A stretch of 64,000 bases of DNA. Origin: a virus. Below the pieces are notes generated by a model. That model saw only the letters and a program-made list of their open reading frames with translations. It did no database searches and was not told the DNA's origin. Below, one piece after another: positions 31,000 through 47,334 of the stretch. Where the stretch lies: IMG/VR virus record IMGVR_UViG_3300045988_163836, one strand, 5' to 3'. Each line of letters begins with the position of its first letter. Positions within the stretch are counted from its first letter, which is position 1. The position numbers and the translations under genes are program-made.

Positions 31000-32685
31000 T
31001 TATTTACCAGCAGCTTGACGATTAGCAATTGTTTTTTCGCTCTTTTCATCGTTAGCTTTTTCTGGTCGGCCACCCTCTTTAGTTTCTGTTTTCACAGTGG
31101 CATTTCCACTTGTTTTATTTTGAGAAGTGTTAGAACCATTCTAATCTTTTTTACCCAAAATATCTTCACCATTTAATGTAGAACTCATAAGAGGAGGTAT
31201 CATAACTTCGCTTAAATGTAAAACTTCGTTTTCAAAATGAGCTGTATTAAGAATAAAACTCTATGATTGTCCAAGAGCAATCTAAGGTAACATTTTAGAG
31301 AAACCAATCTAAGTTTGCTCTTTATACATTTTAGATAAATCTTTATAATTATACTATGTAGTTTCTAACATATAGAATTTATAATTATATTTTTTCTAAA
31401 CATTCAGGACTGATAATATTCTATCAAAAAATATGTTGAATTGCAAAATTAAATTACGCATGGTAGATTCATCATCTAAGATAGACTTTTCTAAGGCGAT
31501 ATTACCATCTGTATTAAATAAATTGCGTGAAACGCCAAATGCATTATATACAGTTCGTTCAACACGCTCTAATTCATCTGTAGTGGCAGAAGTATTTTTG
31601 TCAGAAGTATCAATAGCATCTACATCAGCAAAAGTAGTTAATACATCAACACCTACTGCTCTACGAAGCATTTCAACAGCATTATTATGGATATCACGAG
31701 CTTCATCAATATCAAAAATCAAATCACCATTTTTATCAAGCGGTAATTTCTAAACTAAAATTTTTAACAATTTCTGCATTTGTTTGCGGCGGTCCAAATC
31801 TTGTGCAGCATCCAAATCTAAAATCGCAGGAATAGCATTTACAAATAATGGAATATCATTAGTACCATTTAGAGCAAACTTAATAGTGCTTTGTGGATCT
31901 AACAAATACCAACTACCAGTATTATCACCAGCTACATCAGGTAAAAGTTTACCAGCTTTATAGAGACGATAACCTATTGTAAATTCATCAGGGAATAATT
32001 TTAATACTCTATTACGGTAATTAGTATCCACAAAAGTATCAAAGTATCTCATATCAAATTCAATAGCAGGTAAATTACCTACTGAATATCTTGAACGGCA
32101 ATACTCAATAGGAAGTTGCTATAAAATTAAGCCAGTACTTGAGGGAACAATATAGGCATAATAAGCTCCACATTTGATAACTTCAAGAGCCATATCGCCA
32201 CAAATTTTCTTAATATAAGAATTATCTAAATAATTTAAAATTCGCCAGAAATCTTTTACTGCTTTTGTTTCATTAATATCTTTAACAGCAGAACCATCAG
32301 TATTATTAGACTAAATAGCAATAGCCCAATCATAACGATACATATTTGCAAAATAATTACATACTCTTTGATAAATACCACTTACTCTAAAAAAGAAACG
32401 TGATATTCTTCGCAGTTCTTGAATATCATTACGAATTAAAGCATCCATAACCATAGGTTTTGTATAAATACGTTCACGGCTATATTTTTCACTACGGCGA
32501 CCGTAAGTGTCCCATCTAAAAGATCCAAGATTTAAGACAGCATCATCTAATGTCTTAACCCCGACTTTAATCTTCTTATACTCATTTGGGCCAACGGCAG
32601 AATACTCACGTACTCCTCCAGTTATGTCAAAACCTTTTTTATGTATCTATTCATTTCTGGTTAATTCTTCCTTTTCTAATTCCAT
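31000..32685 (-). CDS. Portal protein candidate of about 560 aa (TAG-recoded).
   Basis: ATG at 32683-32685 with an RBS. It ends at a TAA at about 31000. Track fragments 31750..32052 and 31396..31722 are in this frame. The gene order (TerL, small gene, this gene, scaffold, capsid) fits a portal. Confidence 0.5.
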
Positions 32686-32702
32686 ACTTCACCTTCTTTC
32701 AA

Positions 32703-33147: not shown

Positions 33148-34899
33148 TTAATTCATAAACATCCAATCAGCAGCCCGGAATTTTTTCTTCTTTTTATCTT
33201 CTTCTACTTTTTTTATATAATATAATCCATACTCTAATGCAGAGAATTTATCTTTTTTAATACTTTTATTAGCTTGTTTTAAAATTATATTTAAACCTTC
33301 ATTTTCTTCACGCAGATTCATAATCTCTTCACGCAATGAAGTAGTTAAACTGAATGGTCTTAAATAATCAGATCGCGCTTCTGTGGTCATATTCTAGCCC
33401 ACTTTAGTAGTTAATAATTTCTATTTAGCAGTTCGTTCATCAATTAAAAATTTAATCTTACCAGAATTTAATACTGACTAAGTAATACTATGGGCTTCAG
33501 TATTAATTGGTGCATTAGCTTTCATTAAATATAAAACATCTAATTCTGTACTATTAGTTTTATATTTTTTATATTCTTGAACTGCATCATCCTGAGTTCC
33601 ACCATAAACTCCAAAATCAGGAATTACTTCAGAAGTTTCAGGATTAATCTATGGCTTAACCATAAAATCTACTAAACCAACACCAAGTCCATTAGCATCT
33701 ATTACAATTCTGCGAGCTTTATATTTATAATATAATTTTTTAAGTTTAATAGCCTAATCTTCAAAGTGTGTATCATTCATAGTATAAATATTAACTAAAC
33801 TTTTAATTGGCTCACCATGCGGTTGCGGCGTTACTTTAAATACACAAACAACAGTATCGCATCCTTTACGGCCTACGTCAACACTTAATATATAATAAGA
33901 TAATTTACTTGAACGGCCAGAAGCTTCGTATTCAGGCTAATTCAGTATTCTATTTCTATTAAATATTTCTGCATTAAAGAAAGCGTCTTCAACAGTACCA
34001 GACCAAATTGATTCATATTCACGTTCGAAAGAAGCTTCATTATAAGTTCCTTCATTTTTTTGGTCAGTAATAAATGTTTTCTGTTGTAATCCAACAGCAA
34101 CAGGAGTTCGCCAAGTTCCACCTAATACCATACATCTATCAGGCTATGTAATCATACGAACTAATAAACCAATTAATCTATCATAAGGATAAGTATTTTT
34201 ATAGCCAGCAGTAGTAATATAAATCTATGATTTATTTACCGCTTCTTCTTCATGAGTTGTACCATCCTTAGCTCTACGAGGAATAGCCATAACTGGTATA
34301 ATGACTTCGCGTAAAATCTAATCATCAATACCTACACATTCTTCCATTAGACCACCATGACGACGCTGACCACGAGTACTTTCTCTCGCAGCTAAATTAT
34401 CAAGGACAGAACCATTCTTAAATACATAACGTACTTTATCTTTACTCTCTTGGCTCTTACCTCGGCCCCAATCAATTTCGCGTTTAAAACTTGGTATTAA
34501 ATCACAAATTTCATTAACTTTATCATGTAGAATACTCGCGCCTTGTTCCTTACCACCCGAAGTAACAAATAAATGAACACCAGGATAAAGAATACATCTA
34601 ACCATTAATGCCATAACTGATAAGAATGATTTAGAATAGGCACGAGGGAAAACTGCATAAACGTACTGATAGCGCATTACACATCTTAAAAAAACACGCT
34701 AATAGAAGAAAAATTTAAATTCTCCTTCTTTCTATTCTGTACGTGTTCCTCGTACTAAAAAATCAACAAATAAATCTGGATATTCGCGCCAAAAGGCAGT
34801 ATATTTACGAATGACTGGCATTACGGCATTAATACGTTCTTCAGAAAGACCTATTTTTTTCCTACTTGTAGATAGGTCAAGTAAATCTTGTAACGCCAT
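33148..34899 (-). CDS. terL: Terminase large subunit of about 583 aa (TAG-recoded).
   Basis: ATG at 34897-34899. The N-terminal ATPase-region fragment is track 34318..34677. The C-terminal nuclease-like region has 'YILSVDVGRKGCDT', 'RIVIDANGLGVG' and 'EREYESIWSG' (tracks 33937..34131 and 33148..33390). About 9 in-frame TAGs. Ends at a TAA at 33148. Confidence 0.75.
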
Positions 34900-36065
34900 T
34901 AATCTTCCCTATCAGAGAAAGCATCTATATCTAACTCTGTTTCATTATCTAAAAATTCACTAAAGTCTTCAATATCTTTATCTTCTAAAGTTTTTTCAAT
35001 GTCTTCAATAGACATATCAACATCATCAACAATTGTATCTTCGACGTTTTCTTTAGCCTATTCATCTTCTTTAGCGTTTTGTTTTAATGCCTAATCAATC
35101 ATATTGCCAAGATTAGTTTCTCGTTCAATTAAAGTGCGTGTATATTTTTGCATATCTTTAATTGTAAAATCTACTTTATCATTTGGAGTATCAATGTAAT
35201 ATCTTTCGATATAACCTTGTTTCTCACACATTTCTATTAATTCACCAACAGAATCAATGAAATCGCCAGACTCTTCTTTATTCTATGCGGCAGTAAATTT
35301 GCCTGATTTCATTAAAGAATCATACATTTTAATCATCTTTTGAGCGCCGTCTACATCACCTATATCTAATAACTAATTAGATTTTAATGATGTCTTACAG
35401 GCAAGTTTTAATGTATCAATATGGCCTGCTGACTAAATATCGTAAGACTACATCATTTCATTAAATAATTGCTCTAAGCGTACCCATTCATCAGGGCTAT
35501 AACCTTTTCCCCATTTTAAATAAAGGTATCGTTTATCTTCGTCTGTTAGCTCCGCGCCCAAATCAGGAACCTCAAAATCTAATTTATCTTTAAAATAATC
35601 TTCTGCAGAATTTCCAAAATCTAGGGGAGGAGGGGCAGGAGGAGGCGGCTCTTTTAATTCTTCTGATGGCAAAGCAAATGAAGCACGTTGAATAGCCGTA
35701 GTAATATCTTGAACATCATATCCCTATTGCTTCATTGTTTCTTCTATTTTTTTATTTTGTAAGTCTTGCAAGAATTGACTATCTTTCCATCTATAATCTT
35801 TCCATTGATTTAATTTCATTGCAGAGAGATAGCGACCTAATATTGTCATTCCAGTGACTTTCGCTCTATCCTTCGCAAATTTACCCATTAACTAATTCCA
35901 CTAATCAGGAATGTAAGGAACATCACATTCTTGCAATATCCATAGATAAGTATCCGGATTCCAATTATCTACATGCATTGTTATACATTTTTTACATTTT
36001 GGTAATTTACCATCATTAGGATATTTATCTAAATTATTAGATGTATAAAACTAAGTTCCATCCAT
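34897..36065 (-). CDS. Hypothetical DNA-packaging-associated protein of about 389 aa (small-terminase candidate). It has an N-terminal Cys cluster (KCKKC), a proline-rich tract and an acidic C-terminus.
   Basis: ATG at about 36063-36065. About 9 in-frame TAGs. Its TAA overlaps the TerL ATG (taATGg). Upstream it is bounded by a TGA at 36114-36116, which shows that TGA is a real stop here. Confidence 0.35.
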
Positions 36066-37190: not shown

Positions 37191-37225
37191 TATCAAGATT
37201 AATACCTCCAATCCTTCTAAAAAAA

Positions 37226-37254
37226 TTATAACACAAAAAATTTGCAAAGTCAAC
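37226..37254 (-). promoter_or_regulatory. Sigma70-like promoter for the minus-strand regulatory/late operon (TTGACT-17-TATAAT with a TG extension).
   Basis: The minus strand reads ttgactttgcaaattttttgtgttataat. It is almost identical to the promoter at 20816-20844. Confidence 0.55.
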
Positions 37255-37307
37255 CATGGCCAAAAATTTTTATGGTATTTAGTAAAAAAATTATGTAAAA
37301 TGTAAAA

Positions 37308-37336
37308 TTGACAATTATAAAAATTTTTTATATAAT
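37308..37336 (+). promoter_or_regulatory. Plus-strand early promoter (TTGACA-17-TATAAT) in the divergent intergenic region.
   Basis: ttgacaattataaaaattttttatataat, followed by AAAGGAG and an ATG at 37366. Confidence 0.55.
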
Positions 37337-38112: not shown

Positions 38113-38313
38113 ATGCTGAAAACAGCTTATACAAGAAAACTCGATACAGTTGGACGTTTAATGATTCCCTCTAAACTTCGTGAAGAATTGCATATGGTAA
38201 ATGGTCATAATTATGAATTTTATATTGACGAAGTAGATGGTAAAACTTTTTTATGTATTGAATGTCCTGAAGCCAGTGATGCCGTAGCTCTTGCAAAAGA
38301 AACGTTAGAATAG
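38113..38313 (+). CDS. AbrB/MazE/SpoVT-family (swapped-hairpin) DNA-binding regulator, 66 aa. It ends in TAG.
   Basis: The N-terminus 'RKLDTVGRLMIPSKLREEL' matches the AbrB-type beta-barrel motif. RBS AAAGGAG. The stop codon is TAG at 38311-38313. A terminator follows at about 38348-38378. Confidence 0.6.
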   Translation: MLKTAYTRKLDTVGRLMIPSKLREELHMVNGHNYEFYIDEVDGKTFLCIECPEASDAVALAKETLE

Positions 38314-38347
38314 AATGGGTATCGAGTAATTAAGGAATAAAATTAAA

Positions 38348-38378
38348 GCGGGAAAATATTTTCCCGCTTATTTTTTTT
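38348..38378 (+). terminator. Rho-independent terminator.
   Basis: gcgggaaaatattttcccgc followed by a T-run. Confidence 0.6.
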
Positions 38379-38656
38379 TATAAAAATTGTTTTCCAAAAT
38401 TGAAATGATTATCGTTTTCCGAAATTGAAAATGAGTTTAGATTATTGTCCCGTTTTTTGAAATTGAAATTGAGTTTAGAAATTATTTTGCCAGGAAAGAC
38501 TTTATTACATTAAATTGAAAAAGTTTTTCACGAAACACTGCCCCCCCACTTCACTTGACTAAAGTGTTAAAGTCTATTGTCTTACTTTACTTGAGTGAAG
38601 TGAGTTAGATACGACTAACCCCCAAAAAAAATATTTCGATTTTTGAAAAAAAATAC

Positions 38657-38690
38657 TTGACAATTCCGTGCATAGGTGCTATTCTATAAT
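38657..38690 (+). promoter_or_regulatory. Early promoter (TTGACA ... TATTCT/TATAAT).
   Basis: ttgacaattccgtgcataggtgctattctataat. The -10 element could be TATTCT at 17 nt spacing or TATAAT at 22 nt. Confidence 0.4.
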
Positions 38691-38767
38691 CAGAAATTGA
38701 CCACGGGACAACGCAAGCAAGGCAAAACGCCAAGCGAAAAAAATTCAAGAAATTTTGAAAAAAGTCC

Positions 38768-38796
38768 TTGACAAGTCGGAAGTCCTATGGTACAAT
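38768..38796 (+). promoter_or_regulatory. Strong early promoter (TTGACA-17-TACAAT with TG extension), followed by a roughly 260-nt T-poor leader.
   Basis: ttgacaagtcggaagtcctatggtacaat. Confidence 0.6.
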
Positions 38797-39056
38797 GAGT
38801 ACAACGAAAGCAAGGGAACACAAACAACGCAAGCCCTTGCAAATGTAGTAGAATGACCGGAAAGAGGCCGAAGCACCGAACGGCGTTGAACCTTGACAAG
38901 TGAATGTAAGCCGAGCGTCTACACCACATAGCGGACGCAATGGTAGAACATGAAAAGTGTGGTGCAAGCCGTAGGGCAGTCCAACGCCTATGGCAGATAG
39001 CAACACGGACAGCTGACAACTAACAGTCAAATAATATGTAAAGGATTGGTAAAATC

Positions 39057-39461
39057 ATGGTATATACAATTAAAACAAGCAAGGAAGACAAGGAAAAAGC
39101 AATCAAGGCAGAGCTTGTCTATCAGGCTAAAGATATTCTGTCTGACCTTGCACAGTATTATAAATCAGGGGACAAGTTCGACTATGAAGGCGTCCTTGAC
39201 ACCTACCACTGTTTCGCGGCGAAGAATATCCAGCAATGGGATAATCTTACATGGGCCATAGAGTCGGCAGAGTATGACTTGGAGCATACCGACTATAATA
39301 TGGATATGGAAGCCGGCAATCCATGTGCCGCATATGAGGCCGCCTACGAGAAGCTGACAGACTTACAGGACGAAGCCGAAGAATGGGCGAACACCTTTGA
39401 GCATATGTTCGAGGACTTCTTTAATAAGCTGTATGACCTGTTATATGGTGAAGAAGCATAA
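39057..39461 (+). CDS. Acidic hypothetical early protein, 134 aa. First gene of the early operon.
   Basis: Track ORF with RBS AAAGGA. It is strongly D/E-rich. Confidence 0.55.
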   Translation: MVYTIKTSKEDKEKAIKAELVYQAKDILSDLAQYYKSGDKFDYEGVLDTYHCFAAKNIQQWDNLTWAIESAEYDLEHTDYNMDMEAGNPCAAYEAAYEKLTDLQDEAEEWANTFEHMFEDFFNKLYDLLYGEEA

Positions 39462-39514
39462 GCTTCTTCACCCATTCACCCAACAACCAACTGACAATAT
39501 ATGGAGGTATTATT

Positions 39515-39850
39515 ATGAACCGTATCAACAGAAGAACCGCACGCAAGGAAGCTATGATGAACACTATCGAGCGTGTTAATACTGCTATCAGCAAGGTCAG
39601 ATTCTCTGACCCTGATGGCAAGGCCACCTTCCACAAGCTCTTGGAGAAGAAAGACTATATCGCTGAACAAATCGCCGAAGCCAGCTACACCGAATACTCG
39701 ATGAAGGCTGACTATAATGAGGTCAAACGCATTCTCTCTCATATGGATGAAGGTGGCTGTGCTGACTGGGTCAAGTGGGATATCGAGCAGCTGGCAGCAA
39801 GTCGGCGTCGCTGGTCTATCGCAACAAGTAAGCAGATTTGGTTGGGCTAA
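39515..39850 (+). CDS. Hypothetical early protein, 111 aa.
   Basis: Track ORF with RBS GGAGG before the ATG. Confidence 0.55.
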   Translation: MNRINRRTARKEAMMNTIERVNTAISKVRFSDPDGKATFHKLLEKKDYIAEQIAEASYTEYSMKADYNEVKRILSHMDEGGCADWVKWDIEQLAASRRRWSIATSKQIWLG

Positions 39851-39885
39851 TTGCCCAACCAACCACAAGAAAGGGGATAACATTA

Positions 39886-40073
39886 TGTACGCTATCTATA
39901 ATCACACCACTGGCAAGTATGGCATTATCTACCACAGCCTGACCGTAGCACGGTCTATGGCTCATGCTTACAGCATATGGGCAAAGAATGACAGAGATGT
40001 CATTGATATGCAAACTGGTGAAGTTATGAGTCAGTTCAGCAAAGGACACGAAACTTACAGAGCCAAGGGTTAA
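39886..40073 (+). CDS. Hypothetical early protein, about 62 aa.
   Basis: An internal ATG of track ORF 39717..40073, preceded by AAAGGGGA. Confidence 0.45.
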
Positions 40074-40107
40074 AACCCTTGGCTTCCAATAGAAAGGATA
40101 ATACAAT

Positions 40108-40407
40108 ATGGCAACTGTACGAAATCCCTACGCTGAAATCCGTTTTCTTGATAAGAACAATGTTCAAACTGATTATTGCAGATGGCAATTATCCAGCACA
40201 TTCAACTGCCCTTGGCAGCCTGCCTTCTACCGCGAACTCGAAGAAAAACTCTACATCATGCAGGAACTGGAAATCGTAGGGTTCGGCAGTCGGTCTGCGG
40301 TATTTACTTCTGGTCTGCTGACTACCTACCATTTCACAAACTATCAGATTGTACAGGCAATCGAGCATACGGCCGACCACCTGACGTTAGTGGTGAGGGA
40401 CATTTGA
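40108..40407 (+). CDS. Hypothetical early protein, 99 aa.
   Basis: Track ORF with RBS AAAGGA. Confidence 0.5.
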   Translation: MATVRNPYAEIRFLDKNNVQTDYCRWQLSSTFNCPWQPAFYRELEEKLYIMQELEIVGFGSRSAVFTSGLLTTYHFTNYQIVQAIEHTADHLTLVVRDI

Positions 40408-40475
40408 GTCCCTCTACCGCTTACTAACCGCACAATCGAGCACATGGATTGAATTTTTGGAAAGGAATTTTTGAA

Positions 40476-40628
40476 ATGAAAAATCTCAAGCTGGCGTTGA
40501 CCTTATCCGGTATTATAATTTTCCTCTGGGTCAGCATTTCATTTTGCAATGTAGTAGCACATAACAATCCGGCTGGAGGGGCTTATGAATATCCCTCTTG
40601 GAATTTCTTCGTGATGATGGACGAGTGA
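40476..40628 (+). CDS. Small membrane peptide, 50 aa.
   Basis: Hand-translated as MKNLKLALTLSGIIIFLWVSISFCNVVAHNNPAGGAYEYPSWNFFVMMDE. RBS GGAA. Confidence 0.35.
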   Translation: MKNLKLALTLSGIIIFLWVSISFCNVVAHNNPAGGAYEYPSWNFFVMMDE

Positions 40629-40684
40629 AGGCCATATGGCCTTCACTTAAAATGAAATGAATTAACAGAAAGGAAATATCTGAT

Positions 40685-40996
40685 ATGATTAACATTCGCA
40701 CAATCAAGAAACTGGCTGACGGCGATGGCCTAACACTTAAAAATGGAAAAATCAAGAGGTACAAGAGTGGCTATCAGGTAGCTACTAATGGCGTCGAGGT
40801 CATCAGTCCTGAAATGGCAATACAGGCGGTTCGAGAGTTCAAAGGCACATGCGGCATTTGGCTTGAAAATGGCAGATACTACATTGACATTTCTAAACGA
40901 GTGTCCACAAAACGCGAGGCAGTTGAAATTGGCAGGAAATGTAATCAGCTTTCAATTTACAGATGGCGTGGAAATCCTGCCTGCCTTTACATTTAA
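40685..40996 (+). CDS. Hypothetical protein, 103 aa. Paralog of 41019..41336.
   Basis: The track ORF starts MINIRTIKKLADGDGLTLKNGKIKRYKSGYQV, compared with MINVRTIRKMQDGDTLNIKNGKIKKYKGGFQV in the neighbour. Confidence 0.55.
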   Translation: MINIRTIKKLADGDGLTLKNGKIKRYKSGYQVATNGVEVISPEMAIQAVREFKGTCGIWLENGRYYIDISKRVSTKREAVEIGRKCNQLSIYRWRGNPACLYI

Positions 40997-41018
40997 TATT
41001 TGAGAGGAGAAATAAAAA

Positions 41019-41336
41019 ATGATTAACGTGAGAACTATTCGGAAAATGCAGGATGGCGATACCCTGAACATCAAGAACGGAAAAATCAAAAAGTACAAGG
41101 GCGGTTTTCAGGTGAATATCGCAACATATGAATGCGAACAGCCCGAAAAGGCAATGGAAATTGCCAGAACCCTGAACCGAATGATTGGAAATTGCAGTAT
41201 TCAATTCAAAAATGGAAAATATTACGTCAGCACCACTGAACACGCCTACACCAGACGGCAGGCAAGAGAAATTGCAAATGAAATGGGCGTAAATAAGATT
41301 TATGAATGGCAGAATCTGGCTCATATGGCAGTTTGA
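41019..41336 (+). CDS. Hypothetical protein, 105 aa. Tandem paralog of 40685..40996.
   Basis: Track ORF with RBS GGAGGAG. Confidence 0.55.
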   Translation: MINVRTIRKMQDGDTLNIKNGKIKKYKGGFQVNIATYECEQPEKAMEIARTLNRMIGNCSIQFKNGKYYVSTTEHAYTRRQAREIANEMGVNKIYEWQNLAHMAV

Positions 41337-41437
41337 TCCTGAAATTCCAAGGGCTGGAAATTGGAAACAGTTTCCAGCCCATTTTTCAAATCATCTTCTT
41401 TAATTCATTATCACTTTAATTAAATAAATTGCCTCGC

Positions 41438-41505
41438 CGGGGCGTGGCGAAATTGATATATCCACAGCAAGCTCGCCACGCCCCGCATTTTCCATTTAAT
41501 ACCAA
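41438..41505 (+). terminator. Long GC-rich hairpin terminator.
   Basis: ctcgccggggcgtggcga ... tcgccacgccccgc followed by atttt. Confidence 0.5.
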
Positions 41506-41649
41506 TTCCGAATATTTCCAGCCAAATTCTACCATATTTGACATTACATTCCATTTCCCATATCCTACCAGCTTATGGTATATAATTCCATACCAAATAT
41601 TTCCAGAATCTTTGTGCATATTGACGAATAAAAAAATTTGACTTTCCTA

Positions 41650-41678
41650 TTGACATTTGCTATAGGGTGTGGTAATAT
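41650..41678 (+). promoter_or_regulatory. Early promoter (TTGACA-17-TAATAT with TGTG extension).
   Basis: ttgacatttgctatagggtgtggtaatat. Confidence 0.55.
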
Positions 41679-41683
41679 ATAAT

Positions 41684-41698
41684 TGTTCCAAGGGAACA
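41684..41698 (+). promoter_or_regulatory. Operator-like palindrome TGTTCC-aag-GGAACA just downstream of the promoter.
   Basis: A perfect 6-bp inverted repeat. A related site lies at 51136-51153. Confidence 0.4.
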
Positions 41699-41725
41699 GA
41701 TAAAAATGAAATGGAGATACAAAAA

Positions 41726-41893
41726 ATGACTACTGAAAAAATCGCTGAACTGCTGAACGAATGGATTGATAATGACCATGATTTTAGTGCTGAATCTATG
41801 AACGATTTCTGCAACACATATGCCCGCAATTATGACGAGTATATGGGTCTGTGGTACACAGTCTGCGGTTGCATCGAGGATGAGGAGGGCTAA
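41726..41893 (+). CDS. Small hypothetical protein, about 55 aa.
   Basis: An internal ATG of track ORF 41669..41893, preceded by GGAGA. Confidence 0.4.
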   Translation: MTTEKIAELLNEWIDNDHDFSAESMNDFCNTYARNYDEYMGLWYTVCGCIEDEEG

Positions 41894-41897
41894 CATC

Positions 41898-42038
41898 ATG
41901 TATGAGTTCGAGATGTACAATGTCAACACAAAAAAAATTGAAACTGCATATGGCTACTCCCTAGCAGACGCTAGGGAGAGAAGCCCGAAGTATAACAGCC
42001 GTGAATGGGTTTGTCTAATGTCTACTTATATTGATTAA
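41898..42038 (+). CDS. Small hypothetical protein, 46 aa.
   Basis: GAGGAGGG then the ATG at 41898. In frame with track ORF 41820..42038. Confidence 0.4.
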   Translation: MYEFEMYNVNTKKIETAYGYSLADARERSPKYNSREWVCLMSTYID

Positions 42039-42051
42039 GGGGGAAATGAAA

Positions 42052-42240
42052 ATGAAAATGTCTGAATTTGTAAATAACGTCCTTGATAAGGATATGCTGA
42101 TTGAACTTATTAAACACCTTCCTTCTTGTGAAGCCTGTCCTTTCCAAAAGGCTTGTGAGAAAGCGGTTAATGATAATCCGGATGAATCTTGCGAACAGTT
42201 TCTGAACCGTTGGATTGAAGATGATAGGAACGAGGGCTAA
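42052..42240 (+). CDS. Small Cys-rich hypothetical protein, about 62 aa.
   Basis: AAGGGGG RBS, then one of several tandem ATGs (MKMKMSEF). It has a C..C..C..C pattern. Confidence 0.4.
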   Translation: MKMSEFVNNVLDKDMLIELIKHLPSCEACPFQKACEKAVNDNPDESCEQFLNRWIEDDRNEG

Positions 42241-42270
42241 AAAGCCCTCTTCCAAAAGGAGGAAATTAAG

Positions 42271-42594
42271 ATGGATATTACAAAATTGCAAGTCAGTAAA
42301 CATTTCAAGGAAGACCGCTTGGACAGATATGTTGAAATTCAAATGAACACCGGACTTGGCGAACCTGTGGCAAAATTCAAATATGAGGACAAATGGCAGA
42401 TTATTACAAGCACGGGAGTGATTTTGATTACAGATAGCCGGATGGAATTTCTAATCACTTTGTATTATGTCAACATGGACAAAGCAACTGCAATTTTCAG
42501 ACGAAACGGGCAGATGAAAATGCCGAAAGTAGTATATGACGCAATTCAAAAGAACATGGCGAAAAAGCTAATCAAACATAGAAAGGAAAAATAA
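42271..42594 (+). CDS. Hypothetical protein, 107 aa.
   Basis: Track ORF with RBS AAAGGAGG. Confidence 0.55.
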   Translation: MDITKLQVSKHFKEDRLDRYVEIQMNTGLGEPVAKFKYEDKWQIITSTGVILITDSRMEFLITLYYVNMDKATAIFRRNGQMKMPKVVYDAIQKNMAKKLIKHRKEK

Positions 42595-42596
42595 AA

Positions 42597-42824
42597 ATGA
42601 AAATCGAGTATGAAAAGCCCAGACAGGTTATCCACTTCGCAGCTCTGGATATTGGAACTGTATTCAAATGTCCATCCTATGATACAGTTTATATAAAAAC
42701 TGAATGCGTAGATAATGACGGTGATGAAATCAATTCGATTGATTTATCTACTGGAGAACTTGATTGTTTTGCTGAGGATACAAAAGTCTACGCCGTAGAT
42801 GCTACATTATATGTTAAGGAGTGA
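42597..42824 (+). CDS. Hypothetical protein, 75 aa.
   Basis: Track ORF that abuts the previous stop. Confidence 0.5.
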   Translation: MKIEYEKPRQVIHFAALDIGTVFKCPSYDTVYIKTECVDNDGDEINSIDLSTGELDCFAEDTKVYAVDATLYVKE

Positions 42825-42830
42825 TAAAAA

Positions 42831-43043
42831 ATGGAAGGATATAAAACCTGGAAGTATCTGGTAATTAACTTCCTCCCTACAAAAGACTGGCCGCGATTGT
42901 TTTTTGTAGAAGCTTCGTGTCGTTCGGAAGCTGAACATTATATTCAAAAACACTGTGGAAAAGATTGTATGCTGGTGGATAAGTACGATGAATTTGTTGC
43001 AAAAATTCTTGACTATCCCGAAATTCCGCATGATAAATTCTAA
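42831..43043 (+). CDS. Hypothetical protein, 70 aa.
   Basis: Track ORF with RBS AAGGAG. A terminator hairpin follows at about 43046-43075. Confidence 0.5.
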   Translation: MEGYKTWKYLVINFLPTKDWPRLFFVEASCRSEAEHYIQKHCGKDCMLVDKYDEFVAKILDYPEIPHDKF

Positions 43044-43361
43044 TTTCCATTTGAATTTCCTCCCATATCTTGGGAGGAAATTCTATTTTGAAAATTATAA
43101 AAAAAAATAATATAATTTTTATATAAAAAAAATAATTTTTATTTCTGTTTCAATTCTATAATTTTCCAGTCAAAAAATCAAATGCGGCAAATTTGGCAAT
43201 CCCATAATTTGGAAGGGGAATTTGAGCCAGCCGCGATCCAACGCCGCGGCTGGAATTTCGCGAGTTAAAGTGCTAACGTAAAAAAGTTTTCCAAATCCTT
43301 CCAGCCCAGCCCTTGGAAAATTTTCCCAAAATGTTTGTGTAATTTGACGAATATTTTATGC

Positions 43362-43390
43362 TTGACTTCTGGTATGCCCTGTGCTATAAT
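43362..43390 (+). promoter_or_regulatory. Early promoter (TTGACT-17-TATAAT).
   Basis: ttgacttctggtatgccctgtgctataat, preceded by a GC hairpin terminator at about 43230-43262. Confidence 0.6.
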
Positions 43391-43411
43391 AAGGATACAA
43401 AAGGAAAGGAA

Positions 43412-43804
43412 ATGATAAAAATGAAAATTTACATGGCTGGAGCGTTCTTCCGCCCTGAGACAAAATCAAGAATTGATTCATATGCGGCAGGTTTCCGGCG
43501 GCTTGGGTATGATGTATTTGTTCCGCAAGAACATACTGTCCCGAATGCTTGGGATATGTCGCAGGAAGATTGGGCAAGGGAAGTTTTCAAAATGGATGTT
43601 GCCGCAATTCAAGAATGTGATATTCTATTTGCTGTATATGATGGTCTATACTCTGATTCTGGAACAGCTTGGGAAATCGGGTATGCTTATGCCCATGGGA
43701 AAAATATCCAAATCAGTGTAAATAATGGTGTAAAAGATATGTCAATTATGCCATTCGCAAGTGCTTGGGCTATTGAAAACTATAAAAATATCAAATTAGT
43801 TTGA
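43412..43804 (+). CDS. Nucleoside 2-deoxyribosyltransferase-family protein (NDT / DNPH1-like), about 130 aa.
   Basis: 'MKIYMAGAFF...' together with 'DSGTAWEIGYAYAHGK' matches the family-defining motifs of the NDT fold. RBS AAAGGAAAGGAA. Confidence 0.6.
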   Translation: MIKMKIYMAGAFFRPETKSRIDSYAAGFRRLGYDVFVPQEHTVPNAWDMSQEDWAREVFKMDVAAIQECDILFAVYDGLYSDSGTAWEIGYAYAHGKNIQISVNNGVKDMSIMPFASAWAIENYKNIKLV

Positions 43805-43813
43805 AAAAAACAC

Positions 43814-43842
43814 TTAACAAATCCGCTTGTATCTGATATAAT
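43814..43842 (+). promoter_or_regulatory. Early promoter (TTAACA-17-TATAAT).
   Basis: ttaacaaatccgcttgtatctgatataat. Confidence 0.5.
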
Positions 43843-43875
43843 AAAGATACTCCAAAAGAGAAAGGAAATGATAAA

Positions 43876-44349
43876 ATGATTAAGGAATTGTGCTTCGATC
43901 TTGATGGAACTCTGGTTGACCTCTATGGGGTTGAAGATTGGCTTGATAAGATTCGAGCCTATGACCCTACACCTTATCAGACCGCCGAACCGCTGGTTGA
44001 TATGGCAGAACTTGCCTGTCTACTCCGTAGCTTGCAGAATTGCGGTATCAATGTTGCGGTTATCACTTGGCTGTCAAAAGAGCCGAACAAGCAGTATGAT
44101 GATGAAGTCAGAAAAGCAAAGAGAGCTTGGCTGAAAGAATATGGTTTTCCATTTGACAGTTTGCGATGTGTAGCCTATGGGACGCCGAAGCATAAGATTG
44201 AAGCCGCAAGACTTGCTGATGATGAAGAAGCCCTGATTTTTGATGATGATGCAAGAGTCCGCAGAGATTGGGACTTGGGCGGAGCAATCGACCCCACGAC
44301 CACAAACATCCTTGATGTGCTGAAAGAAATTTTGAATGGACTGGAATAA
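43876..44349 (+). CDS. HAD-superfamily phosphatase, 157 aa (5'(3')-deoxyribonucleotidase-like).
   Basis: The N-terminal 'FDLDGTLVD' is HAD motif I (DxDGT). Its size and layout resemble small phage deoxynucleotidases. Confidence 0.5.
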   Translation: MIKELCFDLDGTLVDLYGVEDWLDKIRAYDPTPYQTAEPLVDMAELACLLRSLQNCGINVAVITWLSKEPNKQYDDEVRKAKRAWLKEYGFPFDSLRCVAYGTPKHKIEAARLADDEEALIFDDDARVRRDWDLGGAIDPTTTNILDVLKEILNGLE

Positions 44350-44373
44350 TCCAGCCCATAGGGGGAAAATGAA

Positions 44374-44586
44374 ATGAATGATATTCTTAAAGAACTTACA
44401 GACTTGGCAAATAAGATTGAAAAATTGTCTGGAAAAGTGTACCTTAGCAGAAAGGATATCTCAAATCCTTATGATTTTACACAAGCAGAAGAATTGAGCG
44501 ATAAGTTATTCAAGATACAATCTGATTTACGTTATGATTGTTATACCTTAGCTGTTGCTATTTGGGGAGACGATGATGGAGACTAA
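44374..44586 (+). CDS. Hypothetical protein, 70 aa.
   Basis: Track ORF with RBS GGGGGAA. Confidence 0.5.
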   Translation: MNDILKELTDLANKIEKLSGKVYLSRKDISNPYDFTQAEELSDKLFKIQSDLRYDCYTLAVAIWGDDDGD

Positions 44587-44770
44587 AATTATAGTTTATT
44601 ATGCTGGTGTAAATTGTTGGAATGTGTCCTATTTTGAGGAACTGCTTTTTGACACAGAAGAAGAAGCTAACCGCTTTATTGGCAAAATTAAAAATAGAAT
44701 GGATGTTAACCGAATTATCAAGACTATTGATTGGAAATTTGAGGGGAGAAACAAAAATGATGATTCCTAA
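44576..44770 (+). CDS. Small hypothetical protein, about 64 aa. Tandem paralog of 44757..44954.
   Basis: An internal ATG of track ORF 44555..44770. It shares a 'KIIVYYAGV...FDTEEEANRFI' motif with the next gene. Confidence 0.4.
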   Translation: METKIIVYYAGVNCWNVSYFEELLFDTEEEANRFIGKIKNRMDVNRIIKTIDWKFEGRNKNDDS

Positions 44771-44954
44771 AAATATTATTGTTAAGTATTCAGGTGTTGA
44801 TAAAAGAGGATTATATTATAATAATGCATTAGAGTTTCGCACAGAACGAGATGCTGACCTTTTTATTCTGGATATGAAGAAATTGATGTTTGGACTGCAA
44901 TCTTATACAAAAATTATCAATTGGGTAAAAAAGGAAGAAACGACAAATGAATGA
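44757..44954 (+). CDS. Small hypothetical protein, about 65 aa. Paralog of 44576..44770.
   Basis: GAGGGGAGAAACAAAA then ATGATG. 'NIIVKYSGV...FRTERDADLFIL'. Confidence 0.4.
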   Translation: MMIPKNIIVKYSGVDKRGLYYNNALEFRTERDADLFILDMKKLMFGLQSYTKIINWVKKEETTNE

Positions 44955-45033
44955 CGAACAGCTTGATATTTTACTTGAAGAAGCAACAGATATTAAAATT
45001 TTGATTGCCTTGGGCTGAAAGGATTGGTAAAAA

Positions 45034-45267
45034 ATGAAAGTTGTAGCTTATATTACGAAGTGCGTTCCTGTCATAGTAGAAATTGATGATAAGTGGAAAA
45101 AGATGGAAAGATGGGCCAATGAACCTACTTGTGAAGAATTGGATGATTATCACGATGATAACATTGATGAATTCGAGGAAGAAGTTGACAAAGCACTGGA
45201 AACAATCGGCGAAAGCGACTATGACATTGCGACAGTCCATACTTCGGCAGGAAATGAAATTTTTTAA
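45034..45267 (+). CDS. Acidic hypothetical protein, 77 aa.
   Basis: Track ORF. A terminator hairpin at about 45345-45383 follows. Confidence 0.5.
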   Translation: MKVVAYITKCVPVIVEIDDKWKKMERWANEPTCEELDDYHDDNIDEFEEEVDKALETIGESDYDIATVHTSAGNEIF

Positions 45268-45435
45268 GAATTGAAAAAATTGGGAATCCAGATTTTGGAT
45301 TCCCCTTTTCTTAATTGTCTATTGGAAATAATTTACATTTTCATTTGAGCCTGCCGCGAACCAACGCCGCGGCAGGCATTTTAGATTTTCAGCATTTTCA
45401 CCAATTTTTTGCCCTAAAATTTGTGCATTCTGCCA

Positions 45436-45464
45436 GTAGACAAAAATCCTAAAACATGATATAC
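45436..45464 (+). promoter_or_regulatory. Early promoter (TAGACA-17-TATACT with TG extension) inside a repeated roughly 110-bp cassette.
   Basis: tagacaaaaatcctaaaacatgatatact. The cassette at 45375-45485 is about 85% identical to 48650-48765. Confidence 0.5.
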
Positions 45465-45527
45465 TTTATAATGTCAAAGGGAAATAATAATTAAATGTTT
45501 AGATAAAATAAGAAAGAGGTAAGCCTA

Positions 45528-46592
45528 ATGACTATTGAAAAAAATAAGAACTTGTTTATCATCACTCTTGGAGATGGCAAGAAAACCTACTTCAACTTCT
45601 CTGATGGCTGTATCTATGGTATGACCGGCAAAAAGGTTAAGGATTTTTGTCCAGAAGCAAAAAGGATTCTCAAAGAATACGCCGATAATAATTTTCTTGC
45701 AAGATATTTTGTAGTAAGAAATAAAGATTATGACTCTTATTTTAGTGATGCTAATAAATGGTCTACTGAAATGGTAGAAACTGTTTATAGCATCTTCGGC
45801 AAAGAATATAATTTGCGTATCCTTGGTGTAATTGCTTATTTCTGTAGCTATAATCATTATGTTCTTGATAAGCAAGGCGTTAAATATCTGAAATTAGGTC
45901 TTGCATCACTGGAAGAACGCCAGCTTGAAAATCTGTGCCGGAATGAAATTGAAGTTGCTGTTCGGGCAGTACATTATTCAAATGTCAATCCGCAGATTTT
46001 AAGAATGATGAATAATGTGAAGCCCGCAGTACATGAAATTATTCTGAAAGACGCAGATAAAATTTTGTTCCGAATGGAACATGAATGTTGGGAACTGCTT
46101 GAAGGCTTCTATGCTATGAGTAAATACATTGAAAGATATATCACACTCTGCAACGAATTGGGCAAAGAAAGAACATACAAAGATATGTTTTTAGCCATTT
46201 GTCAGATGGAAATGGAAAAACGCCTTGCTCTTGAAGCAGGAAGCAGAGACTATCAGTTAAATGCAAACCTTGCATTTGAAGATAATAATTTTATTGTACT
46301 TGTGCCAACGGTAGCAAAAGAATTTGAAGCAGAGGCCGACTATCAGTCAAACTGTGTTTATCGTGCCTATTATCCAAAGGTATTGAAGCGTGAAACACAC
46401 ATTGTTTTTATTCGGCACAAGGCTGAACCGGAAAAACCCTACATCACTTGCGAAGTAAATAATGATGGAAAAATCATCCAGTATCTGACACGTTTCAATA
46501 ATCGTGTTGATTGGGAAACTGATGAATTGGGCTTCCAGTTCCAAGCAATATACGCTAATTATCTTTCTGAACATTTTAATAAAAACGCTTGA
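45528..46592 (+). CDS. Hypothetical protein, 354 aa.
   Basis: Intact track ORF with RBS AAGAAAGAGG. No family recognised. Confidence 0.6.
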   Translation: MTIEKNKNLFIITLGDGKKTYFNFSDGCIYGMTGKKVKDFCPEAKRILKEYADNNFLARYFVVRNKDYDSYFSDANKWSTEMVETVYSIFGKEYNLRILGVIAYFCSYNHYVLDKQGVKYLKLGLASLEERQLENLCRNEIEVAVRAVHYSNVNPQILRMMNNVKPAVHEIILKDADKILFRMEHECWELLEGFYAMSKYIERYITLCNELGKERTYKDMFLAICQMEMEKRLALEAGSRDYQLNANLAFEDNNFIVLVPTVAKEFEAEADYQSNCVYRAYYPKVLKRETHIVFIRHKAEPEKPYITCEVNNDGKIIQYLTRFNNRVDWETDELGFQFQAIYANYLSEHFNKNA

Positions 46593-46617
46593 CAAAATAG
46601 CCCTATTGTGATATAAT
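46589..46617 (+). promoter_or_regulatory. Early promoter (TTGACA-17-TATAAT) overlapped by a palindrome.
   Basis: ttgacaaaatagccctattgtgatataat. The palindrome is tagccctat ... atagggcta at 46598-46624. Confidence 0.55.
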
Positions 46618-46646
46618 AGGGCTATCAAAAGAAAGGAATTGATATC

Positions 46647-46958: not shown

Positions 46959-46970
46959 GGAGTGATACAA

Positions 46971-47285: not shown

Positions 47286-47334
47286 AAAACAAGCCGGCTG
47301 GGAAAAAAATTATAAAAAAAAATTCCCAACCGGC

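What the first reader, a model, noticed from the sequence alone, without database searches (positions are those of the whole stretch)
38370..39056. A noncoding stretch of about 690 bp with direct repeats, a C-run-flanked palindrome, tandem strong promoters and a T-poor leader about 260 nt long
No credible ORF is present. The antisense track ORFs are Cys-rich artefacts. The region contains four elements:
- two direct repeats of about 24 bp, 'gaaattgaaa(a/t)tgagtttaga(t/a)att', at about 38418-38480, plus extra AAATTGAAA copies
- an imperfect palindrome 'ccacttcacttgactaaagtg ... ctttacttgagtgaagtgag' bracketed by C7 and C5 runs (38541-38625)
- two or three strong promoters at 38657, 38768 and possibly 38893
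- a transcribed A/C/G-rich and T-poor leader with local hairpins (caaggg..cccttg, gccgtagg..cctatggc) before the first early gene at 39057

This could be an early regulatory hub in the manner of T7 A1-A3, a structured ncRNA, or a host-factor binding region.
Basis: seen in the sequence. Interest (0 to 1): 0.55.

Follow-up and report, generated by a model that had tools for sequence, protein, structure and literature searches.

The report
Phage early promoters with pseudoknotted leader
This non-coding stretch is the control region of the first early operon of a large gut phage: two strong host-type promoters followed by a conserved, folded, uridine-poor RNA leader that matches no catalogued RNA family and whose function is unknown.

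Summary
The window comes from a ~188-kb gut phage of a Firmicutes host. Its late genes read TAG as a sense codon.

The stretch 38370-39056 is single-copy and is kept in all ~35 relatives found. It contains:
- Tandem 25-38-bp DNA repeats plus a C-run-flanked repeat box, just downstream of an AbrB-family regulator gene.
- Two conserved sigma-A-type promoters (-35 hexamers at 38657 and 38768). The third candidate (38893) is not a promoter.
- A 255-365-nt leader that is the most T-poor stretch in the 64-kb window.

The leader is a modular structured RNA: hairpin H1, pseudoknot PK1, a conserved linker, pseudoknot PK2 and hairpin H5, then an A-rich tail and the ribosome-binding site. Compensatory changes support every helix, and some helices occur in 4-6 unrelated sequence versions.

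The 3' module is 86-87% identical between phages whose flanking genes are only 57-64% identical.

Rfam has no match.

Best reading: an early promoter hub plus a new cis-acting 5' leader RNA. It probably stabilises or controls the first early mRNA, but the function is not shown.

The parts
38113..38313 (+). AbrB/SpoVT-family DNA-binding protein gene (66 aa), immediately upstream. Candidate binder of the repeats.
   Evidence: Pfam MraZ E=1.9e-5. PHROG antitoxin-like E=1.5e-7. PDB SpoVT and AbrB N-terminal domains E=6e-4 to 3e-3. Synteny with the repeats is kept in all relatives.
38346..38379 (+). Intrinsic terminator of the AbrB-like operon. It marks the left border of the non-coding stretch.
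   Evidence: 10-bp stem followed by a T9 run. Conserved in relatives; L035 and L036 carry a different stem.
38386..38486 (.). Three tandem DNA repeat units of 25, 38 and 38 bp. Core: CGTTTTCYGAAATTGAAAWTGAGTTTAGAAATTAT.
   Evidence: Copy number varies from 1 to 5 in relatives, and the promoter-proximal unit is always kept.
38487..38547 (.). Conserved TTGCCAGG box (CCAGG at 38490-38494), a variable spacer containing an extra AAATTGAAA, then the C7 run (38541-38547).
   Evidence: CCAGG and the C6-C8 run are invariant features across relatives.
38547..38623 (.). Repeat box: an imperfect inverted repeat (38547-38565 / 38584-38602) that also reads as two direct units CTTCAYTTGAYTAAAG..TAAAGT. It ends in the C5 run (38619-38623).
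   Evidence: I3, 84% complementary. Only the left half (ACTTCAYTTGACTAAAG..TAAAGTCTAT) is conserved in all relatives, and the complementarity is not maintained.
38626..38685 (+). Promoter P1: A/T-tract upstream element, -35 TTGACA (38657-38662), TG-extended -10 TATTCT (38680-38685). Inferred start about 38692.
   Evidence: (D1). Conserved in all relatives, and many have TATAAT as the -10. The start site is inferred, not mapped.
38692..38767 (+). P1-only leader segment: A/C/G-rich with GCAAG repeats and a mini-hairpin GGC-AAAAC-GCC (38721-38731). It ends in the A-tract upstream element of P2.
   Evidence: Relatives carry GCC-GCAA-GGC at the same place, i.e. a swapped stem. This is a tandem duplicate of the P2 unit (D1, D6).
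38768..38796 (+). Promoter P2: -35 TTGACA, 17-nt spacer, TG-extended -10 TACAAT. Inferred start about 38803.
   Evidence: CTTGACAA and TGGTACAAT are invariant in the close relatives. L035, L036 and L044 have TGCTACAAT, TGCTATAAT and TGCTAAAAT.
38810..38840 (+). Hairpin H1: GCAAGGG / CCCUUGC with a 17-nt A/C-rich loop, near the 5' end of the P2 transcript.
   Evidence: Four unrelated stem versions occupy the same place. The beta version is 95.7% paired and shows AU<->GC and GU/GC/AU exchanges.
38857..38884 (+). Pseudoknot PK1: hairpin H2 (38867-38870 / 38881-38884), whose loop CCG (38876-38878) pairs with the upstream CGG (38858-38860).
   Evidence: H2 stem occurs as GCCG/CGGC, GCGG/CCGC, GCUG/CAGC, GUCG/CGGC and GGCG/CGCC. 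The loop-upstream pairing occurs as CCGG/CCGG and as CCAG/CUGG.
38885..38909 (+). Conserved linker GUUGAACCUUGAMAAGUGAAU. It contains the 'third promoter' TTGACA of the finding.
   Evidence: Conserved in every class, including L036 and L044. No -10 element. No pairing partner identified.
38910..38963 (+). Pseudoknot PK2: S3 (38910-38913 / 38941-38944), S1 (38917-38922 / 38931-38936), S2 (loop 38923-38929 with 38957-38963). Conserved AGAA follows S3.
   Evidence: S1 96.5%, S2 100%, S3 100% paired. (S1+S3 across all classes 94.8% paired, against 22-48% when slid). S2 occurs in 6 unrelated sequence versions.
38968..38994 (+). Hairpin H5: GCCGUAGG / CCUAUGGC with the 11-nt loop GCAGUCCAACG.
   Evidence: 95.3% paired, with GC<->AU exchanges. 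Class-2 relatives carry a different 10-bp hairpin, CUUGCAAGGG / CCGCUUGCAAG, at the same place.
38995..39056 (+). A-rich tail with the ribosome-binding site AAAGGAUUGG (39040-39049), ahead of the ATG at 39057.
   Evidence: Nearly invariant in relatives. No U-tract or terminator before the gene. Predicted accessibility of the ribosome-binding site is inconclusive.
39057..39461 (+). First gene of the GC-rich early block: a 134-aa acidic four-helix protein of unknown function.
   Evidence: 198 protein clusters found, and the exact sequence lies on a 188,240-bp contig. AlphaFold2 pLDDT 88, no fold match in the PDB. No Pfam or PHROG family.
39447..39472 (+). 11-bp hairpin across the stop codon of the first gene, with no U-tract after it. 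Together with the leader it brackets the first cistron.
   Evidence: z = -5.6. L035 and L036 have a different 10-bp hairpin at the same position.

Best explanation
The stretch is the control region of the first operon of the compositionally distinct early gene block of a ~188-kb, TAG-recoded gut phage that infects a Firmicutes host.

Shown:
- Two conserved tandem sigma-A-type promoters with TG-extended -10 elements and duplicated A-tract upstream elements read into the operon 39057-41336, which ends at the terminator 41351-41380.
- The transcribed 255-nt (from P2) or 365-nt (from P1) leader is non-coding, single-copy, always directly upstream of the same gene, and extremely U-poor.
- It folds into a modular structure in which every helix is supported by compensatory changes: hairpin H1, pseudoknot PK1, a conserved single-stranded linker, pseudoknot PK2 and hairpin H5, then an A-rich tail with the ribosome-binding site.

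Inferred:
- The RNA acts in cis on the early mRNA. Most likely it is a 5' protective and expression-control element. Its compact 5' structures and lack of AU-rich single strands would make the transcript a poor substrate for the 5' exonuclease RNase J1 and the endonuclease RNase Y of Firmicutes. The hairpin across the stop codon of the first gene would protect the 3' side.
- The strongly conserved unpaired segments suggest that the RNA also docks a conserved factor, which I could not identify.
- The upstream DNA repeats, placed between the terminator of an AbrB-family regulator gene and P1, are most simply operator sites through which that protein or another one modulates P1 and P2.
For: Promoters.

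Operon layout: a promoter and a terminator for each early operon, with a long leader only on the first.

Non-coding. Indels among relatives are not multiples of three.

Structure:
- On alignment A7, 93.1% of cells are paired against 26-44% in slid controls. Eight pairs and 29 cells change on both sides. None of 500 shuffles reaches the observed values.
- H1 is covered, and S1+S3 across all classes.
- S2 is present as CACCACA/UGUGGUG, GCACCGCA/UGCGGUGC, GCACCGCUC/GAGCGGUGC, AUAACGA/UCGUUAU, GUUAGUG/CACUGAC, GUCUAAG/CUUAGAC and GUUCGUG/CACGGAC. Per-lineage shuffle frequencies are 0.001-0.09.

Constraint: the leader 3' module is 86-87% identical to L035 and L045, where the AbrB gene is 62-64% and the first gene 57-59% identical at the DNA level and the first protein 31-34%.

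Distribution: always one copy, always upstream of this gene. Present in all relatives found through either flanking protein.

U-poverty: it is the extreme of the window.

Literature: B. subtilis RNase Y prefers AU-rich, weakly structured regions depleted of G+C (PMC11780869). 5' stem-loops and 5' stabilisers protect B. subtilis mRNAs, including one taken from phage SP82 early RNA (references cited in PMC3997798).

3' hairpin.

AbrB-family assignment.
Against: - No transcript data, so the start sites, the absence of processing and cis action are all inferred.
- The minimum-free-energy fold of the whole leader is not unusually stable (z = -1.25).
- A simple stabiliser would not need near-invariant loops and linkers, nor two pseudoknots.
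- H1 starts about 7-10 nt from the inferred 5' end, whereas textbook 5' stabilisers sit at the very end.
- Much of the covariation signal comes from a few mosaic lineages. Linked changes 15 nt apart can hitch-hike.
- High identity of the 3' module across distant phages could reflect recent module exchange rather than constraint. Both module classes occur with both clades of the first protein.
- The link between the AbrB-like protein and the repeats rests on adjacency only.
Confidence: 0.55

Rival explanations
1. The leader is a sensor or operator. PK2 and H5 would be a riboswitch aptamer, or the binding site of a phage or host protein, that switches translation of the first early operon on or off in time, as the T4 gene 32 leader pseudoknot does for gp32.
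For: H-type pseudoknots with A-rich third loops are typical of small riboswitches and translational operators. Loops and linkers are highly conserved. The two sequence classes of the 3' module keep the same shape, as expected for co-evolving specificity types. An A-rich unstructured tail lies between the pseudoknot and the ribosome-binding site.
Against: No Rfam riboswitch matches, even at E<=10. There is no expression platform: no terminator or antiterminator, and no consistent pairing that hides the ribosome-binding site. The loop complementarity seen in class 1 fails in L020 and L036. The first gene product is an acidic helical bundle, an unlikely RNA binder. The arginine-rich N-terminus of the second gene product does not track the leader class and is absent in L012 and L013.
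Confidence: 0.17
2. The leader is cut off the mRNA and works in trans as an abundant early non-coding RNA, for example a decoy or sponge for a host RNA-binding factor, nuclease or defence sensor.
For: The RNA is conserved more strongly than its neighbouring proteins. It is made from the strongest promoters at the very start of the early block. The GCAAG motif occurs 5 times against about 0.8 expected. The modules are exchanged independently of the downstream gene.
Against: No terminator or recognisable processing site lies between the leader and the gene. It is always fused to the same gene, in a single copy. GGA motifs are not consistently kept in loops across classes.
Confidence: 0.12
3. The leader modifies RNA polymerase in cis (processive antitermination or anti-pausing, like HK022 put or the Bacillus EAR element). 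Transcripts from P1 and P2 would then read through the terminators of the early block.
For: It sits directly downstream of early promoters. It is structured and acts on its own transcript by position. U-poverty removes pause and termination signals. Several terminators follow at 41351, 43053, 45282, 49757 and 52034.
Against: Every later early operon has its own strong promoter right after the preceding terminator, so read-through is not needed. put and EAR have different architectures, and EAR is in Rfam without a match here. No boxA or boxB-like conserved hairpin was found, apart from a 3-bp mini-stem.
Confidence: 0.07
4. The upstream part (38386-38623) is a DNA-level element rather than an operator: an iteron-type replication origin, or the packaging or terminal-repeat boundary site. 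The promoters would simply lie next to it.
For: There are tandem repeats of variable copy number, AT-rich DNA and strong flanking transcription. The cumulative GC skew has its minimum at about 37 kb, where gene orientation diverges. The terminase genes lie 2-5 kb away. Many short metagenome contigs end at 38426-38708. The base-composition break falls exactly at 38690.
Against: No initiator or replication gene is adjacent; the neighbour is an AbrB-type regulator. The skew minimum also coincides with the switch of transcription direction. Contig ends are expected at repeats and variable regions anyway. Long relatives are assembled straight through the region at varied positions.
Confidence: 0.2

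Closest known systems
Phage T7 early control region (promoters A1, A2, A3, about 430-nt leader, gene 0.3); from my own knowledge
   Same: Tandem strong host-polymerase promoters. A long non-coding leader that contains the downstream promoters. The first product is a small, very acidic protein. Repeats lie upstream.
   Different: There are two promoters, not three. No RNase III-type long duplex is present. The leader carries two covariation-supported pseudoknots. No evidence places this region at a genome end. The first protein has no detectable similarity to Ocr.
SPO1/SP82-type early ('host-takeover') gene blocks of Bacillus phages and the SP82 5' mRNA stabiliser (Hue et al. 1995, cited in PMC3997798)
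   Same: A block of about 13 kb of small early genes, each short operon driven by a strong sigma-A promoter. A Firmicutes host. The idea that early RNA carries a 5' element that prolongs mRNA life.
   Different: The SP82 stabiliser is a short polypurine, ribosome-binding-site-like sequence, not a 250-nt pseudoknotted fold. A terminal-redundancy location is not shown here. No sequence similarity to any phage record.
T4 gene 32 mRNA leader pseudoknot (translational operator; discussed in PMC10690425)
   Same: An H-type pseudoknot in a phage 5' leader, followed by an unstructured A-rich stretch that runs to the ribosome-binding site.
   Different: The downstream protein is an acidic helical bundle, not a single-strand-binding protein. 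There are two pseudoknots and two hairpins. No evidence of autoregulation.
Plant-virus-type exoribonuclease-resistant RNAs (stem with internal loop whose apical loop pairs downstream); from my own knowledge
   Same: PK2 has the same topology: S3 + internal loop + S1, with the apical loop pairing to sequence 3' of the stem. Its position upstream of a message would suit blocking a 5'-3' exonuclease such as RNase J1.
   Different: S2 is 7-10 bp here, against 3-4 bp in those elements. There is no sequence similarity. The resemblance is topological only, and that topology is common to many H-type pseudoknots.
HK022 put / lambda nut leader elements; from my own knowledge
   Same: Structured RNA immediately downstream of phage early promoters that acts on its own transcript.
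   Different: put is two simple stem-loops and nut is boxA plus boxB; neither pattern is present. The later operons here have their own promoters.

Membership tests
Any Rfam 15 family (riboswitches, ribozymes, leaders, sRNAs) | Covariance-model score at or above the family's gathering threshold | tested here: not met
   No hits in the whole window at gathering thresholds. At E<=10, nothing in 38690-39056 apart from two chance-level matches far below threshold: BSnc150 at 15.9 bits against 73, and Atu_C7 at 10.5 against 45.
Sigma-70/sigma-A promoter with extended -10 | TTGACA-like -35, 17-nt spacer, TGnTATAAT-like -10 | tested here: met
   P2 matches 11 of 12 positions plus TG. P1 matches 10 of 12 plus TG. 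Both are conserved in relatives. The pattern is 70-fold enriched in the window.
Sigma-70/sigma-A promoter with extended -10 | Transcription actually starts there | not testable with these tools
   No transcript data. The start sites 38692 and 38803 are inferred from spacing.
Sigma-70/sigma-A promoter (third candidate, 38893) | -10 hexamer at 16-18 nt, and conservation of both hexamers | tested here: not met
   Not listed by the scan. TTGACA reads TTGAAA, TTGTAA or TTGGAA in most relatives.
H-type RNA pseudoknot | A hairpin loop pairs with sequence outside the hairpin, and both helices are kept by compensatory change | tested here: met
   PK2: S1 96.5% and S2 100% paired with changes on both sides. 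S2 occurs in 6 unrelated versions. PK1: the H2 stem occurs in 5 versions, and the loop/upstream pairing as CCGG/CCGG and CCAG/CUGG. Physical formation is not testable here.
Riboswitch | Conserved aptamer plus an expression platform (terminator/antiterminator, or hiding of the ribosome-binding site) | tested here: not met
   No terminator in the leader. No consistent anti-ribosome-binding-site pairing across classes. Predicted site accessibility equals the leader average. Ligand binding is not testable.
5' mRNA stabiliser of Firmicutes | Stable structure, or a ribosome-binding-like site, at or very near the 5' end | tested here: inconclusive
   H1 begins about 7-10 nt from the inferred start. 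An outer helix that would pair the first nucleotides is only 78% kept. The start site is not mapped.
5' mRNA stabiliser of Firmicutes | Lengthens mRNA half-life | not testable with these tools
   Needs a decay assay in a Firmicutes host.
Iteron-type replication origin | Tandem iterons next to an AT-rich unwinding region and an initiator gene | tested here: inconclusive
   Tandem repeats and AT-rich DNA are present. The adjacent gene is an AbrB-type regulator, not a recognisable initiator.
CodY operator (host nutritional regulator of low-GC Firmicutes) | Matches to AATTTTCWGAAAATT, enriched at the site | tested here: not met
   The repeat cores have 5 mismatches in the window and 4 in relatives. 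Matches with <=3 mismatches number 24 against 20.3 expected, and none falls in the repeats.
Protein-coding gene (standard or TAG-recoded) | An open frame with a start codon and ribosome-binding site, kept in relatives | tested here: not met
   Only 31-33-aa frames on the + strand. No longer frame appears with TAG read through. Indels among relatives break the frames.

The most novel reading that the evidence does not exclude
The leader, and especially its linker-PK2-H5 module, is a new class of phage RNA device recognised by a specific partner. It could be, for example, a block to the Firmicutes 5'-3' exonuclease RNase J1, or a docking site for the ribosome, RNA polymerase or a host defence or regulatory protein. 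It is held under tighter constraint than any neighbouring protein. It exists in at least two interchangeable 'alleles' (class 1 and class 2) that keep the fold but swap helix sequences and move between phage lineages as cassettes.
Probability: 0.25. Interest if true: 0.7.

Novelty: new member of a known kind. Interest (0 to 1): 0.5.

Why it matters
Large phages with reassigned stop codons are common in gut microbiomes, but none of this group has been cultured and nothing is known about how they start infection.

This region pins down the likely first strongly transcribed unit of one such lineage. It also yields a well-supported new structured RNA: about 250 nt, two pseudoknots, and roughly 35 natural variants that include complete helix swaps. 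The variants already provide the compensatory-mutation series an experimenter would otherwise have to design.

If the RNA proves to be a nuclease-resistant or factor-recruiting leader, it would be a portable expression element for low-GC Gram-positive hosts. It would also give a handle on early phage-host conflict.

If it is only a stabilising leader, the finding is a tidy but ordinary example of phage early-gene control.

Tried and rejected
- Rfam at gathering and at permissive thresholds: nothing.
- blastn of the region against 50,697 phage records: no match.
- Third promoter at 38893: no -10 element, not conserved.
- Hidden coding potential, including TAG read-through: none.
- Palindrome as a selected cruciform or dimer site: the complementarity is not maintained in relatives.
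- H5 loop CAGUCC pairing with the ribosome-binding site GGAUUG. It holds in class 1 and class 2a (AAUCC) but fails in L020 and L036, so it was dropped.
- Thermodynamic accessibility of the ribosome-binding site: uninformative.
- Lambda-N-like antiterminator idea, from the arginine-rich N-terminus of the second gene product. Its sequence does not follow the leader class, and L012 and L013 lack it.
- CsrA-sponge idea: GGA motifs are not consistently kept in loops.
- CodY boxes in the repeats: no enrichment.
- Function of the first gene product: a confident four-helix model but no PDB fold match and no Pfam or PHROG family.
- Host copy of the RNA.
- Prophage or host assignment through the first protein in 185,579 genomes: none.
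- Supplementary alignments of the 8,495 candidate viral RNAs in PMC10690425 are not held as text. I therefore could not check whether part of this leader is already listed there.
- MAFFT alignments put the class-2 S2 and H5 helices out of register. Those helices were therefore judged from explicit sequence tables and shuffles, not from column counts.
Full report
CONTEXT

The window is part of a large phage genome.
- Left of about 37.4 kb, all genes are on the minus strand and are readable only if TAG is a sense codon. Under that reading there is a 3125-aa ORF with 109 in-frame TAGs, a large terminase with 12 and a portal-like gene with 10.
- The terminase is 42-47% identical to those of 120-142-kb phages of Geobacillus, Enterococcus and Alicyclobacillus, and to the TAG-recoded gut phage phAss-1.
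- The exact first early protein lies on a 188,240-bp contig, and relatives come from 185-193-kb human-gut contigs.
- No prophage copy was found in 185,579 genomes.
- From 39057 to about 52.0 kb there is a block of small + strand genes in the standard code. Its G+C is 36-45%, against 25-32% elsewhere.
- The block is organised as short operons. Nine of the eleven TG-extended -10 promoter matches in the window lie on its + strand (11 found against 0.16 expected). Terminators sit at 41351, 43053, 45282, 49757, 52034 and 52123.
- The finding is the non-coding stretch between the terminator of an AbrB-family regulator gene (38113-38313) and the first gene of this block.

CHECK OF THE OBSERVATION

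Everything described is there.
- The direct repeats are three tandem units at 38386-38486. The 21-mer core occurs twice against 0.01 expected.
- The inverted repeat is 38547-38565 / 38584-38602 at 84% complementarity, flanked by C7 and C5 runs.
- Promoters P1 (38657) and P2 (38768) are good sigma-A-type sites with TG-extended -10 elements. They carry duplicated A-tract upstream regions (D1).
- The 38893 candidate has no -10 element and is not conserved.
- T is 15% in 38690-39040, and this is the most T-poor 250-nt stretch in the 64 kb.
- No ORF is credible under either genetic code.

RELATIVES

Searching with the first early protein and with the AbrB-like protein gave about 35 distinct loci. 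They came from viral contigs, gut metagenomes (human and pig) and Logan assemblies.
- Every locus that reaches far enough upstream has the whole arrangement in the same order: AbrB-like gene, terminator, 1-5 repeat units, a CCAGG box, a C6-C8 run, the box ACTTCAYTTGACTAAAG..TAAAG, an A-tract, P1, a short A/C/G-rich segment, an A-tract, P2, the leader and the gene.
- The element is single-copy and found nowhere else in those loci or in the window.

THE LEADER IS A STRUCTURED RNA

The alignments show complete helix replacements at fixed positions.
- H1 occurs as GCAAGGG/CCCUUGC, CAAGAGGAC/GUYCUCUUG, CAAGGGAAC/GUUCCCUUG and GAAACACG/CGUGUUUC, always with an A/C-rich loop. The beta set is 95.7% paired.
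- H2 occurs as GCCG/CGGC, GCGG/CCGC, GCUG/CAGC, GUCG/CGGC and GGCG/CGCC.
- The H2 loop pairs with the upstream ACCGG. That pairing changes to CCAG/CUGG in L036, L044 and L047, which makes PK1 a pseudoknot.
- PK2 has three parts: an outer stem S3 (GCCG/UGGU; GGC/GCC in class 2), an inner stem S1 (GYCUGC/GCGGRC, with U-A exchanging for C-G), and a loop-to-downstream helix S2 of 7-10 bp.
- S2 exists in six unrelated sequence versions. Per-lineage shuffle frequencies are 0.001-0.09.
- H5 follows PK2, with a different 10-bp hairpin in class 2.

Formal counts:
- On 24 class-1 sequences the six helices are 93.1% paired, against 26-44% when the 3' partners are slid. Eight pairs and 29 cells change on both sides. 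None of 500 shuffles reaches the observed values.
- S1+S3 across all classes are 94.8% paired, against 22-48% when slid.

Caveats:
- The sequences are related and mosaic, so the shuffle control overstates significance.
- The H2 columns are partly out of register in the alignment.
- The minimum-free-energy fold of the whole leader is not exceptional (z = -1.25). That program cannot model pseudoknots.
- In class 1, S1a can alternatively extend S2 into a 13-bp helix. This alternative is absent in class 2, so the pseudoknot is the conserved fold.

CONSTRAINT AND MOSAICISM

- Against L035 and L045 the 3' module (38885-39056) is 86-87% identical. The AbrB gene is 62-64% and the first gene 57-59% identical at the DNA level, and the first protein 31-34%.
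- Class 1 and class 2 modules each occur with both clades of the first protein, and the H1 types are shuffled as well.
- Either selection on this RNA is unusually strong, or the modules move between phages as cassettes. Probably both apply.
- Unpaired segments are nearly invariant: GAACCUUGAAAAGUGAAU, the AGAA after S3, and the H5 loop. This points to tertiary contacts or a bound partner.

WHAT IT IS NOT

- It matches no Rfam family and no catalogued phage record.
- It is not a riboswitch by the usual criteria: no expression platform, and no consistent hiding of the ribosome-binding site.
- The first gene product is a confident acidic four-helix bundle with no fold match, so gp32-style autoregulation is unlikely.
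- The arginine-rich N-terminus of the second product does not co-vary with the leader class.
- CodY boxes are not enriched.
- The linker motif finds no host counterpart.

MECHANISM

Shown: conserved tandem promoters, a conserved non-coding transcribed-strand element with two pseudoknots and two hairpins, and no terminator before the gene.

Inferred: the RNA works in cis on the first early mRNA.
- The U-poor, G+C-enriched, compact leader is the opposite of what B. subtilis RNase Y prefers, which is AU-rich, weakly structured regions (PMC11780869).
- 5' structures are established protectors against RNase J1 in Firmicutes. One classic 5' stabiliser came from phage SP82 early RNA (references cited in PMC3997798).
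- A conserved 11-bp hairpin across the stop codon of the first gene is replaced by a different 10-bp hairpin in divergent clades and has no U-tract after it. It would protect the 3' side, so the first cistron is bracketed by structures.

I therefore rank 'protective and expression-control 5' leader' first. The degree of sequence conservation suggests an additional, unidentified partner.

The rivals are a sensor or operator, a processed trans-acting RNA, and antitermination. None is excluded.

For the upstream DNA repeats, the simplest reading is operator sites for the adjacent AbrB-family protein. A replication origin or a packaging or terminal boundary remains possible: the cumulative GC skew has its minimum at about 37 kb, and many short contigs end at 38426-38708.

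NOVELTY AND VERDICT

The promoter hub is ordinary phage biology, and the T7 and SPO1 analogies are apt.

The leader is a new, well-supported structured RNA family confined, as far as I can see, to this clade of recoded gut phages. Its function is unknown.

I could not check whether a fragment of it is already among the 8,495 unnamed candidate viral RNAs of PMC10690425.

Interest is moderate.

Noticed in passing
window 1-37445 (minus strand), e.g. 10793-20170, 31000-32688, 33148-34911: The late and structural genes are readable only with TAG as a sense codon. Examples: a 3125-aa ORF with 109 in-frame TAGs, the terminase with 12 and the portal-like gene with 10. The early block 39057-52000 uses none. 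No suppressor tRNA lies in this window (ARAGORN found no tRNA).
   Followed up: partly
window 39447-39472; L035 3797-3822; L036 3782-3807: An 11-bp hairpin, GGUGAAGAAGC-AUAA-GCUUCUUCACC, spans the stop codon of the first early gene (z = -5.6). Divergent clades have a different 10-bp hairpin, CCGGAAGAGG..CCUCUUCCGG, at the same place. No U-tract follows, so it is not a terminator. It may constrain the invariant C-terminus YGEEA/YPEEA.
   Followed up: partly
window 38690 and about 52050: There are sharp composition borders. G+C rises from about 28% to 40-45% exactly at the P1 transcription start. It falls back after two terminators at 52034-52059 and 52123-52149. The 13-kb early block therefore looks like a compositional island.
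   Followed up: partly
window 37225-37336: A divergent pair of TG-extended -10 promoters lies here: minus strand 37253-37225 towards the late and packaging genes, plus strand 37308-37336 towards a 51-aa gene, a 145-aa gene and the AbrB-like gene. The cumulative GC skew has its minimum here.
   Followed up: no
window 39515-39850: The second early gene product starts with an arginine-rich segment, MNRINRRTARKEAMM, reminiscent of lambda-N-type RNA-binding motifs. It is conserved across clades but missing in L012 and L013, and it does not track the leader class.
   Followed up: partly
window 40685-41336; 48924-49755 and 51169-52034: Paralogous early genes are present. One is a tandem pair of 103 and 105 aa. 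The other is a two-gene module (128+132 aa and 136+120 aa) present twice, each copy behind its own strong promoter (48846 and 51102).
   Followed up: no
window 43358-43804 and 45528-46592: The early block encodes a nucleoside 2-deoxyribosyltransferase-family protein (Pfam E=5.6e-22) and a PcfJ-like protein (E=9e-17). The first hints at nucleotide or DNA-base metabolism early in infection.
   Followed up: no
loci L009, L010, L013, L018, L020, L023, L027, L047, L049-L051 (equivalent to window 38426-38708): Eleven short metagenome contigs end 310-631 nt upstream of the first early gene. L049 and L050 carry different sequence upstream of GCGCTAACAGCG. This could mark assembly breaks at repeats or strain-variable sequence, or a real structural boundary.
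   Followed up: no
window 38541-38547 and relatives: The length of the C-run varies among relatives (C6, C7, C8). This could be homopolymer slippage or sequencing error. The position is invariant.
   Followed up: no
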